Part shown: positions 9,346-14,074 of the stretch, piece after piece | Layout: every line of letters starts with the position of its first letter | How positions within the stretch are numbered: position 1 is the first letter of the stretch | Source: Candidatus Saccharimonadia bacterium | GTDB lineage: Bacteria > Patescibacteriota > Saccharimonadia > CAILAD01 > CAZGYV01 | Reading direction: 5' to 3' | DNA: 64,000 nt | Assembly: GCA_041906885.1 (NCBI GenBank) | Contig: JAYRII010000015.1 | Location: 15,534-79,533 of the forward strand | Position numbers and translations under genes: made by a program | The notes under the pieces: generated by a model | Database searches by the model: none | Told to the model about the DNA's origin: nothing | What the model saw: the letters and a program-made list of their open reading frames with translations, nothing else

Positions 9346-10836
9346 CTACAAATCCTCCGATGGTAAAGTTGATATTATCTCCAGCTCTTGTTTGAGTAAG
9401 CGAGCTCGCAAGAAGACGAAGACCGCTCCAGCTGATAAGACAGCGAATAGCAAGTTCGGCCACTTAGATCCAGTTTGTGGTAATTTCTCAATCGTTTGCT
9501 CCACTCTCTTAGCGGGAGGCGGGGGTAATTTGATCGAAACGGGATGCGCCTTGAACACATTGTCCATTGTCAGATCAAAACTAGTTGGATCACTAACGCT
9601 CGTAGCAGTCGTTGGTATTGGATTTTTTACTTGAACAACAAAACTTTTGACAACACTCTTACCGGCTGCAATATCCACAGCCGGCCAGGTCAAAATGGTT
9701 TGCTTTTCTTTGATTGAGCTGGTGGCGCCACCCATATCGACGATCTCAGCATACTCTAAAATATCCGAGACATTCTCCTCAAAAACAAAACCTTTGGCCA
9801 CACCATCGCCACTATTGCGCGCTAACAAGTTATAGCGAATCTTATTTCCCGCCGCTACAGTGGTATTATTAGCATCAGTCGGTTTGTTTTCACTGGTTAA
9901 AACAGTCAAGTTATCGGCGGTCTTTAAGTAGTCGAGATTTGGAGTCAATACAGGAGTGACTTTAATCGGTTGCTGGCAAGCTTTATTGTCAACTGATATC
10001 CCCAAGGATGATTTAACCTTTAATTTGGCAATATAATTTCCTGGCTTGGTATAAACATGACTGGTTTTATTTGATGCCTGGTCAACTGGCGTGCTACCGT
10101 CACCAAAGTCAAAGATATAGTTTGTAATAGTAGTGCCGGTGGCTGTGCCTTGCCCGACATAATTTACTGTCAATGGAGCAGTGCCATTATTTGGCAAGGC
10201 ACTCAAACTCAAACAGTCAAACTTGGGCTGAGGAGTTGGCACTGGAGTGGGTGGTGGAGTGGGTGGTGGAGTGGGTGTCGGTTTGTGACGCACCGCTATA
10301 TTGCCACAATTATACATTACCCAAAATTCCTCACCACGCGAATTAGTGCCATGCAATACACTATAGCGTGCACTGGTGCCCCAGCTCGCCAACGGTCTAA
10401 TGTAAATGGTAGTACCAGCACCGGGAATGCTCATCAATTCATCTTGCGAAGTATGTGGATTGCGACCAATCGACAAGACGCCTGGCTCGCCACCACTAAG
10501 ACCTTTTGACTCATAGGCAGCATTTTGTAAATCAGCTAAGGTGATGCCGAAATATTCATAGATCGACCTGATTTCAGCATTAGAATTATAAATATCATAA
10601 AGTTGTGTTCGCCGACTAAAGCCACCAAATATAATATCATTAGAGCTAGCAGCATTTGACGGTTTAGGCGGTACAATAAAAGTAAAAGCCTGGAATAGAG
10701 TCACAATTACTACCAATACAGCAGCCAAACGCCGAGTGGCCGCTTCTTTACCTAGACGACTAATATAAAAACTCAGCTTACCTTTAGCCCGCGGACTTTT
10801 TAAACTTAAATTTGTCACAAAATTGCGAAAAAGCAT
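9346..10836 (-). CDS. LPXTG-anchored cell-surface protein with a PKD domain and a Pro/Thr-rich linker.
   Basis: An N-terminal signal-anchor; a PTPTPPPTPPPTPVPTPQP linker; a PKD motif (YIFDFGDGSTP...HVYTKPGNYIAKLKV); and a C-terminal LPQTG followed by a hydrophobic helix and a basic tail. Confidence 0.75.
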   Translation of the reverse strand: MLFRNFVTNLSLKSPRAKGKLSFYISRLGKEAATRRLAAVLVVIVTLFQAFTFIVPPKPSNAASSNDIIFGGFSRRTQLYDIYNSNAEIRSIYEYFGITLADLQNAAYESKGLSGGEPGVLSIGRNPHTSQDELMSIPGAGTTIYIRPLASWGTSARYSVLHGTNSRGEEFWVMYNCGNIAVRHKPTPTPPPTPPPTPVPTPQPKFDCLSLSALPNNGTAPLTVNYVGQGTATGTTITNYIFDFGDGSTPVDQASNKTSHVYTKPGNYIAKLKVKSSLGISVDNKACQQPIKVTPVLTPNLDYLKTADNLTVLTSENKPTDANNTTVAAGNKIRYNLLARNSGDGVAKGFVFEENVSDILEYAEIVDMGGATSSIKEKQTILTWPAVDIAAGKSVVKSFVVQVKNPIPTTATSVSDPTSFDLTMDNVFKAHPVSIKLPPPPAKRVEQTIEKLPQTGSKWPNLLFAVLSAGAVFVFLRARLLKQELEIISTLPSEDL

Positions 10837-10903
10837 TTTATCCTAAAGTCTTCTAGTACTCTAATTCTAAATGCTTATGCTAATATAGGCAAGTCAAGCC
10901 GAT

Positions 10904-13618: not shown

Positions 13619-13660
13619 GATCTTTTCTAAGTATCCTTATGAGTTTTTGGTTTTTTTATA

Positions 13661-14074
13661 TTACGAATCATCAACATCGACGTTAAACCTTTTTTTGAGG
13701 TATTCCTTACTCAGCGATTCCTCCTGTTGTTCCTCAGCAAAGGGATCATTGGCGGTAGATTTTATTATATTTTCAGCCCTATCAACCCACTCTTTCTCGA
13801 TCACATCAACATCTTCGGCTGGCAGATCATCCTCGGGTATGGTCTGACTAGGCACCTGGGCAGATGGGGTAACAGCTGTTACGGGTAAATTGGTTGCCTG
13901 ACCACCAGTAGTAGTGGTCGGCGAACTTGGTCGAGCGACCGTCTCCTCTGGGCCAGCTACTTTCTTGCTGGTCATTAATTCAGGCTTTTTTTGATCGGGC
14001 GTGGAGGCCGACGGTTGCTCTACTTTTGACTGTTCGGGGTTTTGACTGGGCTGCTGTAGACTACTAGGTTGCAT
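13661..14074 (-). CDS. Hypothetical low-complexity (P/S/T/Q-rich, acidic C-terminus) protein.
   Basis: A 137-aa ORF co-directional with and upstream of the coupling-ATPase gene; no recognisable domain. Confidence 0.3.
   Translation of the reverse strand: MQPSSLQQPSQNPEQSKVEQPSASTPDQKKPELMTSKKVAGPEETVARPSSPTTTTGGQATNLPVTAVTPSAQVPSQTIPEDDLPAEDVDVIEKEWVDRAENIIKSTANDPFAEEQQEESLSKEYLKKRFNVDVDDS

What the first reader, a model, noticed from the sequence alone, without database searches (positions are those of the whole stretch)
9346..14074. Coupling-protein-like ATPase, LPXTG/PKD adhesin and small membrane proteins form a block contiguous with the ATP synthase genes
A 904-aa VirD4/TrwB/TraD-like P-loop ATPase has a single N-terminal TM helix, the H-x-IVGQTGTGKS...IDPHGD nucleotide-binding arrangement, a DEFQNF...SLIVANQ Walker B/QS-box-like region and a Gln/Pro-rich tail. 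It is followed co-directionally by a sortase-substrate surface protein with a PKD domain, and then by the two odd hairpin proteins and the F1Fo genes. There are no VirB4, relaxase or pilin genes nearby, so this is not an obvious conjugative element. Coupling-type ATPases linked to surface adhesins are candidate components of the contact-dependent secretion or attachment machinery reported for epibiotic CPR bacteria.
Basis: partly seen in the sequence, partly recalled or inferred. Interest (0 to 1): 0.55.

Follow-up and report, generated by a model that had tools for sequence, protein, structure and literature searches.

The report
Essential secretion-type motor ATPase beside unrelated adhesin
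The genes are real, but the "block" is three separate units placed side by side; the interesting one is a membrane-anchored motor ATPase, found across these ultra-small parasitic bacteria and essential in the one studied experimentally, that joins the front half of one type IV secretion ATPase to the engine of another.

Summary
The window is a core chromosomal region of a Saccharibacterium.

(1) The conserved unit is a 4-TM protein (tm127), a small protein (QP137) and the 904-aa ATPase. By an eight-gene synteny match, QP137 and the ATPase correspond to SEML1_0141/0142 of Southlakia epibionticum. Both are called essential in the published Tn-seq table but are not discussed in any paper text searched.

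(2) The PKD/DUF11 LPXTG protein and hp186 form their own two-gene unit. It lies convergent to the ATPase in 28 of 32 relatives that have it, is absent from 38 of 70 loci, and is non-essential in S. epibionticum.

(3) Contiguity with atpFHAGDC is confined to the window's own clade.

Best reading (about 0.45): it is the unlinked coupling or energising ATPase of the essential Patescibacterial type IV secretion system, whose gene cluster lacks one. Its function has not been tested.

The parts
19437..19820 (-). tm127: a 127-aa four-TM membrane protein, the ancestral first gene of the ATPase unit. In this clade pheS-pheT-ykuD has been inserted between it and QP137.
   Evidence: jackhmmer from tm127 finds 47 homologues among the ORFs of the 80 loci. 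Forty sit two genes upstream of the ATPase, three sit three genes upstream, and four sit five genes upstream (the window clade). The equivalent position in S. epibionticum is SEML1_0140 (NE/GD/GD).
13661..14074 (-). QP137: a 137-aa protein with a P/S/T/Q-rich, probably disordered N-terminal 85 aa and a conserved ~50-aa C-terminal helical module (13664-13819; DVIEKEWV...DP[FY]...YLKKRF). It is the proposed partner, adaptor or regulator of the ATPase.
   Evidence: An HMM of the C-terminal module hits 44 of 72 ORFs immediately upstream of the ATPase and no other ORF in any locus. The gap to the ATPase start is 42 nt. There is no Pfam match. The positional equivalent, SEML1_0141, goes from 9 input insertions to 0/0/0 and is called GD/ES/ES.
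10904..13618 (-). 904-aa membrane-anchored ATPase with four parts: a TM helix, a DUF8128 domain with the VirB4 N-terminal-domain fold, a coupling-protein-type nucleotide-binding domain, and a disordered tail.
   Evidence: By synteny it corresponds to SEML1_0142 (ES/ES/ES).
13526..13594 (-). Single N-terminal TM helix (aa 9-31). The acidic N-terminus and the RRIFRRAK stretch after the helix imply that the rest of the protein is cytoplasmic (inference from the positive-inside rule).
   Evidence: Read from the sequence. AF2 predicts a helix over aa 3-45.
12434..13483 (-). DUF8128 (PF26449), aa ~46-395: an alpha/beta domain with the fold of the VirB4 N-terminal domain.
11129..12421 (-). Nucleotide-binding domain (aa ~400-830). 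It contains Walker A GQTGTGKS (12290-12313), IDPHGD (12215-12232), an all-alpha insertion at aa ~505-638 (11705-12106), Walker B YVDEFQNF (11537-11560) and SLIVANQ (11465-11485).
   Evidence: Pfam DUF87 32 bits, T4SS-DNA_transf 24.9 bits (aa 430-726), TrwB_AAD_bind 24.5 bits. NCBIfam SXT_TraD E 5e-12. PDB profile search: TrwB 2e-7, DotL 3e-5, HerA 0.03; no VirB4 or FtsK chain at E<=1. Foldseek: TrwB TM 0.61-0.66 over ~440 columns. Catalytic residues are invariant across 89 homologues.
10907..11119 (-). Disordered P/S/Q-rich C-terminal tail (aa 834-904). Its length varies greatly among homologues, which reach about 2,000 aa in total.
   Evidence: Composition. pLDDT is below 50 at aa 834-837, 842-895 and 897-904.
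9346..10836 (-). 496-aa surface protein and first gene of a separate two-gene unit. It has an N-terminal signal/TM segment (10669-10725), PKD (9994-10191), DUF11/CLIPPER (9559-9876), LPQTG (9469-9483), a TM segment (9403-9456) and a conserved ~17-aa cytoplasmic tail.
   Evidence: Pfam hits. A C-terminal LPxTG is present in 28 of 32 homologues, and all keep the TM segment and tail. Orientation relative to the ATPase is convergent in 28 loci and co-directional in 4. The positional equivalent, SEML1_0144 (DUF11), is NE.
8785..9345 (-). hp186: a K/E-rich cytoplasmic N-terminal region followed by a C-terminal two-TM hairpin. Its start codon directly follows the stop codon of the LPXTG-protein gene.
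   Evidence: It co-occurs with the LPXTG-protein gene in 30 of the 32 loci that have that gene. The positional equivalent, SEML1_0143, is NE. No significant Pfam hit.
7791..8819 (-). hp342 (or 290 aa from 8663 in other gene calls): an exported domain followed by a C-terminal two-TM hairpin. It is context only and not part of the ATPase unit.
   Evidence: It lies next to atpF only in the window clade (L004, L007, L008); in L017 it lies elsewhere.
2838..7779 (-). atpF-atpH-atpA-atpG-atpD-atpC: context whose contiguity with the ATPase is lineage-specific.
   Evidence: Pfam assignments. The arrangement ATPase, LPXTG protein, hp186, hp342, atp is seen only in L004, L007 and L008 and in contigs identical to the window.

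Best explanation
The interval juxtaposes two independent units.

Unit A is QP137 plus the 904-aa ATPase, ancestrally preceded by the 4-TM protein tm127. It is a conserved, phylum-wide core module and is essential in the one model organism tested. The ATPase is tethered to the cytoplasmic face of the membrane by one TM helix. It carries a VirB4-N-terminal-domain-like module (DUF8128) and a coupling-protein-type RecA/all-alpha nucleotide-binding domain, and it ends in a disordered tail.

Most likely, by analogy with TrwB/VirD4, it forms a hexameric translocation motor. This motor would serve the chromosomal Patescibacterial type IV secretion system, which is essential in the model organism, is encoded elsewhere, and lacks a coupling protein in its own cluster. 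The VirB4-like N-domain would dock it on the inner-membrane platform (the VirB3/PrgI, VirB8-like and TrsD/VirB4 proteins). QP137 would act as a bound adaptor or regulator, as CagZ does for Cag-beta or TraM for TraD. The substrate and the direction of transport are unknown.

Unit B is the PKD/DUF11 LPXTG surface protein plus hp186. It is a separate, dispensable cell-surface unit that was inverted in this lineage so that it reads the same way as unit A. It sits next to hp342 and atpFHAGDC only in this lineage.

Shown here: the domain architecture, the fold assignments, the synteny statistics, and the Tn-seq calls for the positional equivalents. Inferred: orthology by synteny, hexamer formation, the link to the secretion system, and the role of QP137.
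For: Architecture.
- DUF8128 is followed by a coupling-protein-like domain.
- The full-length AF2 model has pLDDT 84.9.
- In the full-length Foldseek search, VirB4 chains align over about 930 columns and TrwB scores TM 0.61-0.66.

Conservation.
- 595 of 600 pattern matches in species-representative genomes encode a relative. They span Saccharibacteria, Daviesbacteria, Curtissbacteria and Sungbacteria.
- 1,053 cluster representatives (50% identity) match DUF8128.

Partners.
- All 44 QP137-family hits lie immediately upstream of the ATPase.
- tm127 homologues sit two genes upstream in 40 loci.

Synteny with S. epibionticum. The string yifB(-) / tm / small protein / ATPase / ~190-aa(-) / DUF11 ~535-aa(-) / gyrB / gyrA / PAP2 is the same in most Saccharibacterial loci and in SEML1_0138-0147.

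Tn-seq.
- SEML1_0142 is ES/ES/ES, falling from 114 input insertions to 11/11/9.
- SEML1_0141 falls from 9 input insertions to 0/0/0.
- VirB4 (SEML1_0008) has a similar profile, 80 to 9/3/4.
- SEML1_0143 and 0144 are NE.

Literature.
- The essential secretion-system cluster SEML1_0006-0019 has no recognisable coupling protein (PMC10633639).
- Coupling-protein homologues occur in 2,918 of 3,035 Patescibacterial genomes, mostly unlinked to virB4 (PMC12102498).
- The "non-essential t4cp" described in that paper fits the paralogue SEML1_0293 (NE), not SEML1_0142.
Against: - No physical or genetic link to the secretion system was shown. None of the 80 loci has secretion-system genes beside the ATPase. 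The literature reports only 148 of 5,713 homologues near virB4.
- Homologues occur in more genomes (2,918) than VirB4 does (2,417). Some lineages may therefore keep the ATPase without the system, although incomplete MAGs could explain the difference.
- SEML1_0142 is essential from T0 (class I), whereas most secretion-system genes are class II.
- Orthology to SEML1_0142 rests on synteny, length and domain boundaries. I could not obtain that sequence.
- The usual neighbours (yifB/comM, gyrB, gyrA) would fit a role in DNA metabolism equally well.
- Pfam matches to coupling-protein models are weak (about 25 bits).
Confidence: 0.45

Rival explanations
1. The ATPase works independently of the type IV secretion system, as a membrane-anchored nucleic-acid translocase or other essential housekeeping motor. 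Possible roles are DNA or RNA uptake, or processing at the membrane.
For: - It is nearly universal in the phylum and more widespread than VirB4.
- Its equivalent is essential from T0, like information-processing genes.
- The usual flanking genes in Saccharibacteria are yifB/comM and gyrB-gyrA.
- It belongs to the FtsK/HerA/coupling-protein superfamily of DNA pumps.
- Host RNA uptake has been reported for a cultivated Patescibacterium, with the mechanism unknown.
Against: - The only strong structural match of the N-domain is a secretion-system-specific module, the VirB4 N-terminal domain.
- comEC and yifB are dispensable in S. epibionticum.
- A true FtsK already exists there.
- Synteny in reduced genomes is weak evidence of function.
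Confidence: 0.2
2. It is a second VirB4-type assembly ATPase of the secretion system, powering pilus or channel biogenesis, rather than a substrate-coupling protein.
For: - The full-length architecture (N-domain plus ATPase domain) aligns collinearly with TrwK/VirB4, and these are the top Foldseek hits at E 1e-16.
- The cluster-encoded VirB4 of S. epibionticum is short (612 aa), with a separate TrsD-like N-terminal piece.
Against: - Sequence models favour coupling proteins. TraD, TrwB and DotL are the best matches. The VirB4 model TIGR00929 scores 18 bits against a cut-off of 643. No VirB4 chain reaches E<=1 in the PDB profile search. No CagE_TrbE_VirB or AAA_10 Pfam hit was found.
- TraG-D_C and full-length TrwB_AAD_bind matches occur in the paralogues and in the domain-only relatives.
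Confidence: 0.15
3. One reading: the ATPase and the LPXTG/PKD adhesin, with the hairpin proteins, form one contact-dependent secretion or attachment module.
For: - The genes are co-directional and closely spaced in the window (67-nt gap, no terminator-like site between them).
- The adhesin-hp186 pair lies next to the ATPase in 32 of 70 loci.
Against: - The pair is convergent in 28 of those 32 loci and absent in 38 of 70.
- The S. epibionticum equivalents of the adhesin and hp186 are non-essential, while the ATPase and QP137 equivalents are essential.
- LPXTG proteins are exported by Sec and anchored by sortase (established knowledge) and do not need a coupling ATPase.
- A promoter-like site lies in the gap before the adhesin gene (weak evidence).
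Confidence: 0.08
4. It is an FtsK/SpoIIIE-type chromosome-segregation translocase, or a remnant of a conjugative or mobile element.
For: - Weak FtsK_SpoIIIE and HerA (DUF87) matches around the P-loop.
- Relatives carrying only the nucleotide-binding domain occur on virus-like contigs, and a PHROG family matches.
Against: - The FtsK model scores 21.3 bits, below its 24-bit cut-off, and covers only aa 395-451.
- There is no 4TM, alpha or gamma domain.
- S. epibionticum has a separate, essential FtsK with a gamma domain.
- The gene sits in conserved core synteny across the class, with uniform GC content.
- No relaxase or integrase is nearby.
Confidence: 0.03

Closest known systems
Type IV coupling proteins (TrwB of R388, VirD4, TraD, DotL/IcmO, Cag-beta)
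   Same: - They are the best sequence relatives among solved structures (TrwB E 2e-7, DotL 3e-5).
- The same Walker A, xDPxGD and Walker B (DExxxx...Q) arrangement is present (alignment).
- An all-alpha insertion lies in the RecA-like core.
- Foldseek TM is 0.61-0.66 to TrwB and 0.53-0.54 to Cag-beta.
- Both are membrane-anchored and have a disordered C-terminal tail.
- A small partner gene lies next to it, as with CagZ/Cag-beta and TraM/TraD (my own knowledge plus the PDB title).
   Different: - It has one TM helix instead of the usual two.
- A ~350-aa VirB4-like domain lies between the anchor and the ATPase.
- It is not encoded with a relaxase or a mating-pair-formation cluster.
- It is a conserved core chromosomal gene, and its positional equivalent is essential.
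- HMM scores are only just above the cut-offs.
VirB4 / TrwK, the signature ATPase of type IV secretion systems
   Same: - Both have a two-domain layout, an N-terminal domain followed by a RecA-like C-terminal domain.
- The top full-length Foldseek hits are VirB4 chains, aligning over about 930 columns.
   Different: - VirB4 sequence models do not recognise it.
- Saccharibacteria have a separate cluster-encoded VirB4 (SEML1_0008).
- It has its own TM anchor.
SEML1_0142 and SEML1_0141 of Southlakia epibionticum ML1 (Wang et al. 2023, PMC10633639, Tables S1 and S2)
   Same: - The eight-gene neighbourhood is the same as in most Saccharibacterial loci that carry this ATPase family.
- The size class is the same, and the P-loop domain starts at about aa 381.
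- The proteins are annotated as a TraM-recognition-domain protein and a hypothetical protein.
   Different: - In the window's clade the flanks are rearranged: pheST-ykuD is inserted upstream, and the adhesin unit is inverted and followed by the atp genes instead of gyrBA.
Second Patescibacterial coupling-protein paralogue (SEML1_0293 type)
   Same: It has the same architecture. Distant DUF8128-bearing proteins of 820-941 aa carry full-length TrwB_AAD_bind, T4SS-DNA_transf and TraG-D_C matches.
   Different: - Identity in the N-domain is only 26-30%.
- The Pfam coupling-protein signal is stronger.
- It is non-essential in S. epibionticum and lies in a different neighbourhood (GNAT, Cas9).
FtsK/SpoIIIE and HerA
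   Same: They share the P-loop translocase superfamily. DUF87 scores 32 bits, and HerA chains appear among the fold hits.
   Different: There is no FtsK 4TM, alpha or gamma domain and no HerA HAS-barrel. The FtsK model scores below its cut-off.
LPXTG cell-wall-anchored proteins with Ig-like domains (DUF11/CLIPPER, PKD); SEML1_0144
   Same: It has a signal/TM segment, PKD and DUF11 domains, and LPQTG followed by a hydrophobic segment and basic residues.
   Different: A conserved ~17-20-aa cytoplasmic tail follows the basic residues. Four of 32 homologues lack LPxTG but keep the TM segment and tail. The gene is always paired with the hairpin protein hp186.

Membership tests
Type IV coupling protein (VirD4/TrwB/TraD) | Nucleotide-binding domain recognised by coupling-protein HMMs above the curated cut-off | tested here: met
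   T4SS-DNA_transf scores 24.9 bits against a cut-off of 20.1, covering aa 430-726. TrwB_AAD_bind scores 24.5 against 20.5 but covers only aa 426-492. TrwB and DotL are the best PDB hits. The NCBIfam equivalog cut-offs are far from met (45 bits against 366).
Type IV coupling protein (VirD4/TrwB/TraD) | All-alpha domain inserted in the RecA-like core | tested here: met
   The AF2 model shows a helical insertion at aa ~505-638 between strands 485-488 and 640-644. This is a predicted structure, not a solved one.
Type IV coupling protein (VirD4/TrwB/TraD) | N-terminal membrane domain of two TM helices joined directly to the nucleotide-binding domain | tested here: not met
   There is one TM helix (aa 9-31), followed by a ~350-aa DUF8128 domain with the VirB4 N-terminal fold.
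Type IV coupling protein (VirD4/TrwB/TraD) | Genetic linkage to a relaxase or a mating-pair-formation/secretion-system cluster | tested here: not met
   None was found in the 64-kb window. I noticed none in the +/-10-kb flanks of the 80 loci: all flank ORFs were compared only with the window's proteins and the neighbours in six loci were read in full; they were not screened with secretion-system or relaxase models. The literature reports 148 of 5,713 Patescibacterial homologues near virB4.
Type IV coupling protein (VirD4/TrwB/TraD) | Hexameric ATPase that binds substrate and docks on the secretion channel | not testable with these tools
   This needs biochemistry or multimer modelling. Only single-chain prediction was available.
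VirB4 | VirB4-type N-terminal domain | tested here: met
   [not shown]
VirB4 | Recognition by VirB4 sequence models (TIGR00929, CagE_TrbE_VirB, AAA_10) | tested here: not met
   TIGR00929 scores 18.1 bits against a cut-off of 643. No Pfam VirB4 family appears at E<=0.01. No VirB4 chain reaches E<=1 in the PDB profile search.
VirB4 | Encoded beside the VirB3/VirB6/VirB8 genes | tested here: not met
   I noticed none beside the ATPase in the 80 loci, but the flanks were compared only with the window's proteins and six loci read in full, not screened with VirB models. The cluster-encoded VirB4 of S. epibionticum is a different gene, SEML1_0008.
FtsK/SpoIIIE | FtsK_SpoIIIE motor domain above the cut-off, with a gamma (KOPS-binding) domain and a 4TM N-terminus | tested here: not met
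   PF01580 scores 21.3 bits against a cut-off of 24 and covers only aa 395-451. There is no PF09397, PF17854 or PF13491 match. A true FtsK with these domains exists separately in S. epibionticum.
DUF8128 (PF26449) ATPase family | N-terminal DUF8128 domain followed by a P-loop ATPase domain | tested here: met
   Precomputed Pfam assigns PF26449 to the identical protein and to all 120 listed homologues. The model is absent from the local Pfam copy, so I did not rescore it.
Sortase substrate (LPXTG cell-wall anchor) | C-terminal LPXTG motif, then a hydrophobic segment, then basic residues; plus an N-terminal export signal | tested here: met
   LPQTG lies at aa 452-456, followed by NLLFAVLSAGAVFVFL and RAR. 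An N-terminal hydrophobic segment lies at aa 38-56. The motif is conserved in 28 of 32 homologues. An atypical 17-aa tail follows.
Sortase substrate (LPXTG cell-wall anchor) | A sortase encoded in the genome | tested here: inconclusive
   No sortase was found among the window ORFs scanned, and the rest of the genome was not available. S. epibionticum has two sortases, SEML1_0327 and SEML1_0711.
PKD / DUF11 surface-protein domains | Pfam domain scores above the gathering cut-offs | tested here: met
   PKD_4 45.9 against 27, PKD 37.4 against 23.5, DUF11 25.7 against 24.6.

The most novel reading that the evidence does not exclude
DUF8128 ATPases are the missing, essential coupling motor of the Patescibacterial type IV secretion system. 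They would be a chimeric or ancestral-type ATPase that keeps a VirB4-like docking domain on a coupling-protein engine. With the QP137-type partner, the motor would pull host-derived polymers (RNA or DNA) into the epibiont through the secretion-system pilus, supplying the nucleotides these bacteria cannot make.
Probability: 0.12. Interest if true: 0.9.

Novelty: new variant of a known kind. Interest (0 to 1): 0.58.

Why it matters
[quoted passage not shown] Its function is described as completely unknown (PMC11665869). Its gene cluster "lacks recognizable coupling and relaxase proteins" (PMC10633639). The one phylum-wide survey dismissed "the t4cp homologue" of the model organism as non-essential (PMC12102498).

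This analysis shows that the model organism has two such genes. The one in the position of the window's gene (SEML1_0142), together with its small partner (SEML1_0141), is called essential in the published table. I found no discussion of either gene in the text of any paper in the library.

The analysis also gives the uncharacterised DUF8128 domain a concrete structural identity, the VirB4 N-terminal-domain fold. That suggests how the ATPase could dock on the secretion machine, and it bears on how VirB4 and the coupling proteins diverged.

Together these results name a specific, genetically tractable candidate for the motor of an essential host-interaction machine. They also remove a misleading association with an adhesin and with ATP synthase.

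Tried and rejected
1. The ~660-aa and ~850-aa proteins that follow the ATPase in most Saccharibacteria might have been VirB6 and VirB4. On reading them they are GyrB and GyrA.
2. The ~810-827-aa proteins upstream in other Patescibacteria might have been VirB4. They look like class II ribonucleotide reductase, flanked by NrdR-like and cobalamin adenosyltransferase-like proteins, judged by eye from the sequences.
3. By eye, the hairpin of hp342 (GRNP loop) and of hp186 (Gly-rich first TM, acidic residue in the second) resemble the F-type c subunit. No ATP-synt_C hit appears even at E<=10. hp186 is normally nowhere near the atp genes. The idea is not supported.
4. A homologue search with QP137 gave only 15 hits, none with a Pfam domain or a name. 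A local HMM was more informative.
5. Literature searches for DUF8128 and for SEML1_0142 returned nothing.
6. The stored supplement of PMC12102498 is cut before the rows for strain ML1. I could not see which genes that study counted as T4CP there.
7. The afdb50 fold library was unavailable.
8. Promoter and terminator scans were not above the shuffled expectation for promoters: 34 found against 27 +/- 5 expected. They are used only as weak hints.
9. The mSphere G6 paper's "VirD4" is a prophage-borne gene unrelated to this family.

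
Full report
**1. What is in the interval**

All genes between about 2.8 kb and 23.6 kb lie on the minus strand. In the direction of transcription the order is:

| Gene | Coordinates |
|---|---|
| tm127 | 19437-19820 |
| pheS | 18448-19440 |
| pheT | 15672-18446 |
| YkuD L,D-transpeptidase | 14133-15662 |
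| QP137 | 13661-14074 |
| 904-aa ATPase | 10904-13618 |
| 496-aa PKD/DUF11 LPXTG protein | 9346-10836 |
| hp186 | 8785-9345 |
| hp342 | 7791-8819 |
| atpF, atpH, atpA, atpG, atpD, atpC | 2838-7779 |

- GC content is even across the region.
- The Pfam PKD and DUF11 hits exceed their cut-offs.
- An identical ATPase is found on 22 independent contigs, in the same gene order on the three places examined.
- Close homologues are labelled Candidatus Saccharibacteria or Saccharimonadia.
- About 37 window ORFs scanned against Pfam are ordinary chromosomal genes. They include tRNA synthetases, glycosyltransferases, a UvrD-type helicase, alanine racemase, a YifB/ComM-type ATPase and a sigma factor. No VirB4, relaxase, sortase or FtsK is among them.
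- The ATPase has no paralogue in the window.

**2. Is the block conserved?**

I fetched 80 loci from species-representative genomes and compared their ORFs with the window's proteins.

In most Saccharibacteria the arrangement is:

yifB(-) ... tm127-like(+) QP137(+) ATPase(+) [hp186(-) LPXTG protein(-)] gyrB(+) gyrA(+) PAP2-like(+)

The two large downstream proteins are GyrB and GyrA, not secretion-system parts.

| Feature | Count |
|---|---|
| Loci with enough downstream context | 70 |
| Loci with the LPXTG-protein gene within four genes | 32 |
| of which convergent to the ATPase | 28 |
| of which co-directional (the window's clade) | 4 |
| Loci with both the LPXTG-protein gene and hp186 | 30 |
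| Loci with neither gene | 38 |

The run into hp342 and the atp genes is seen only in the window's clade.

The upstream partners are tightly linked to the ATPase:
- An HMM of QP137's C-terminal module hits 44 of 72 immediately upstream ORFs and nothing else in any locus.
- tm127 homologues sit directly before QP137 in 40 loci. In the window's clade pheS-pheT-ykuD has been inserted between them.
- Outside Saccharibacteria, in loci labelled Daviesbacteria or Curtissbacteria and in several whose record titles do not name a Patescibacterial lineage, a different small protein with a similar build occupies the same upstream position. It has a low-complexity N-terminus and a C-terminal helix.

The real conserved unit is therefore tm127-QP137-ATPase. 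The LPXTG protein and hp186 form a second unit that is a frequent neighbour but optional. The ATP synthase adjacency is incidental.

**3. Link to experimental data**

The supplementary tables of Wang et al. 2023 (PMC10633639) list the same eight-gene string in Southlakia epibionticum ML1.

| Locus | Description | Tn-seq calls (T0/T1/T2) | Insertions (input, then T0/T1/T2) |
|---|---|---|---|
| SEML1_0138 | yifB (-) | NE/NE/NE | |
| SEML1_0140 | 117-aa membrane protein | NE/GD/GD | |
| SEML1_0141 | 139 aa | GD/ES/ES | 9, then 0/0/0 |
| SEML1_0142 | 1,019-aa "TraM recognition domain-containing protein", P-loop domain aa 381-800; core and Patescibacteria-enriched family | ES/ES/ES | 114, then 11/11/9 |
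| SEML1_0143 | 193 aa (-) | NE/NE/NE | |
| SEML1_0144 | 535-aa DUF11 protein (-) | NE/NE/NE | |
| SEML1_0145, 0146, 0147 | gyrB, gyrA, PAP2 | ES/ES/ES; GD/ES/ES; GD/ES/ES | |

By synteny, size and domain boundaries I infer these correspondences:
- window ATPase = SEML1_0142
- QP137 = SEML1_0141
- LPXTG protein = SEML1_0144
- hp186 = SEML1_0143

I could not obtain the sequences to confirm this.

Other relevant genes in the same organism:
- A bona fide FtsK with a gamma domain (SEML1_0096), which is essential.
- A cluster-encoded VirB4 (SEML1_0008). Its depletion profile, 80 input insertions falling to 9/3/4, resembles that of SEML1_0142.
- A second coupling-protein-like gene (SEML1_0293), which is non-essential.

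Wang et al. state that the essential secretion-system cluster lacks a recognisable coupling protein. Quinonero-Coronel et al. 2025 (PMC12102498) speak of a single, non-essential t4cp homologue in ML1. That description fits SEML1_0293 and not SEML1_0142. No paper text in the library mentions SEML1_0142 or DUF8128.

**4. What the ATPase is**

*Sequence.*
- Precomputed Pfam gives DUF8128 (PF26449) at the N-terminus, plus weak DUF87, T4SS-DNA_transf and TrwB_AAD_bind matches.
- The best NCBIfam match is TraD.
- A family profile searched against PDB sequences finds TrwB (2e-7), DotL (3e-5) and HerA (0.03). No VirB4 or FtsK chain appears at E<=1.

*Structure.*
- AF2 with 89 homologues gives a confident model (pLDDT 84.9).
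- The model shows a long N-terminal helix, an alpha/beta domain (aa ~46-395), a RecA-like core with an all-alpha insertion (aa ~505-638), and a disordered tail.
- In the full-length Foldseek search, TrwK/VirB4 chains rank first and align over about 930 columns. TrwB aligns over about 440 columns with TM 0.61-0.66.
- All 14 significant Foldseek hits of that domain model are VirB4 chains.

*Conclusion on architecture.* The protein combines a VirB4-type N-terminal domain with a coupling-protein-type engine, behind a single TM anchor. Canonical coupling proteins have two TM helices and no such domain (my own knowledge of TrwB, VirD4 and TraD).

*Related proteins.*
- More distant DUF8128 proteins, probably the SEML1_0293-type paralogues, show full-length coupling-protein Pfam matches. 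The hybrid layout therefore seems general for Patescibacterial "T4CP homologues".
- Soluble relatives of about 430 aa, carrying only the nucleotide-binding domain, occur on 14 IMG/VR contigs at up to 44% identity.
- PHROG family phrog_5156 matches the window protein almost end to end.

**5. Mechanism**

*Shown.* The architecture, the conservation, the partner linkage, and the essentiality calls for the positional equivalents.

*Inferred.*
- The protein forms a membrane-tethered hexameric motor, by analogy with TrwB.
- Its VirB4-like domain docks it on the inner-membrane platform of the secretion system encoded elsewhere.
- QP137 is a bound adaptor or regulator.

I give this reading about 0.45.

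*Main rivals.*
- A translocase independent of the secretion system (0.2). This is favoured by the family's wider distribution than VirB4 (2,918 against 2,417 genomes), its essentiality from T0, and its DNA-metabolism neighbours.
- A second VirB4-type assembly ATPase (0.15).
Orientation, frequent absence and discordant fitness phenotypes count against it.
- FtsK or a mobile-element remnant (about 0.03). This is effectively excluded.

**6. The surface protein unit**

- The LPXTG protein has an export signal, PKD and DUF11 domains, and a sorting signal.
- The family keeps a conserved cytoplasmic tail after the basic residues. Four of 32 members have lost LPxTG but kept the TM segment and tail.
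- The stop codon of the LPXTG-protein gene abuts the start codon of hp186.
- Both equivalents are dispensable in S. epibionticum, whose genome encodes two sortases.
- It is best described as an accessory cell-surface protein with a membrane partner.

**7. Novelty and score**

- Unlinked coupling-protein homologues in Patescibacteria are already published, and the domain is already in Pfam as a DUF. The family is therefore not new.
- New here are three points: the VirB4-like identity of DUF8128, the recognition that the essential member has been conflated with its non-essential paralogue, and the definition of the tm127-QP137-ATPase unit.
- I class it as a new variant of a known kind, with interest 0.58.
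- The block as originally proposed is not a functional entity.

Noticed in passing
window 15672-18446 (-), pheT: The phenylalanyl-tRNA synthetase beta subunit (924 aa) carries an inserted NlpC/P60 peptidoglycan-hydrolase-type domain (PF00877) according to the precomputed Pfam list. This is odd for a cytoplasmic aminoacyl-tRNA synthetase subunit. The same architecture appears on all three identical contigs.
   Followed up: no
window 2838-9345 (-): The atp operon reads atpF-H-A-G-D-C, with no recognisable atpB (a subunit) or atpE (c subunit) upstream. hp186 and hp342, each ending in a two-TM hairpin, sit where those genes usually are. By eye the hairpins resemble c subunits, but Pfam ATP-synt_C is not hit even at E<=10, and hp186 normally lies far from the atp genes.
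   Followed up: partly
window 9349-9483 (-), and homologues in L004-L081: The LPXTG-protein family has a conserved ~17-20-aa cytoplasmic tail (consensus roughly L..E[LV].[IL][IV][RK]) after the sorting-signal TM segment and basic residues. Four of 32 homologues lack LPxTG but keep the TM segment and tail. This suggests the C-terminus does more than serve as a cleaved sorting signal.
   Followed up: partly
L084-L097 (IMG/VR viral contigs): Fourteen virus-classified contigs encode relatives that match only the ATPase's nucleotide-binding domain, at up to 44% identity; most are ~400-450-aa proteins with no N-terminal TM helix or DUF8128 domain. The five scanned gave coupling-protein-type Pfam matches, full-length TrwB_AAD_bind in two and TraG-D_C in all five. 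The elements were not characterised.
   Followed up: partly
window 10904-13618 (-) against PHROGs: phrog_5156 (824 positions, unknown function) matches the ATPase over aa 114-826 with E 2e-79. Full-length members of this family are therefore present in a phage or prophage protein collection. They may come from prophage mis-calls in Patescibacterial genomes.
   Followed up: no
L065-L083 (loci outside Saccharibacteria): The ORF immediately upstream of the ATPase is not a QP137 homologue. It is again a small protein with a low-complexity N-terminus and a conserved C-terminal helix. Examples are ...SWRWLAEWC[IV][KR]RLK... in L067, L072, L076 and L083, and ...LAAMAIWVGKMLKKAHKH... in L065, L068 and L069.
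   Followed up: partly
[not shown]
   Followed up: no
window 29749-31818 (+) and 51683-53689 (-): Two large ORFs (689 aa and 668 aa) have no Pfam match at E<=0.001.
   Followed up: no
window 14133-15662 (-): A YkuD L,D-transpeptidase with two PG_binding_4 repeats lies directly upstream of QP137. Together with pheST it forms the insertion that separates tm127 from QP137 in this clade only.
   Followed up: partly
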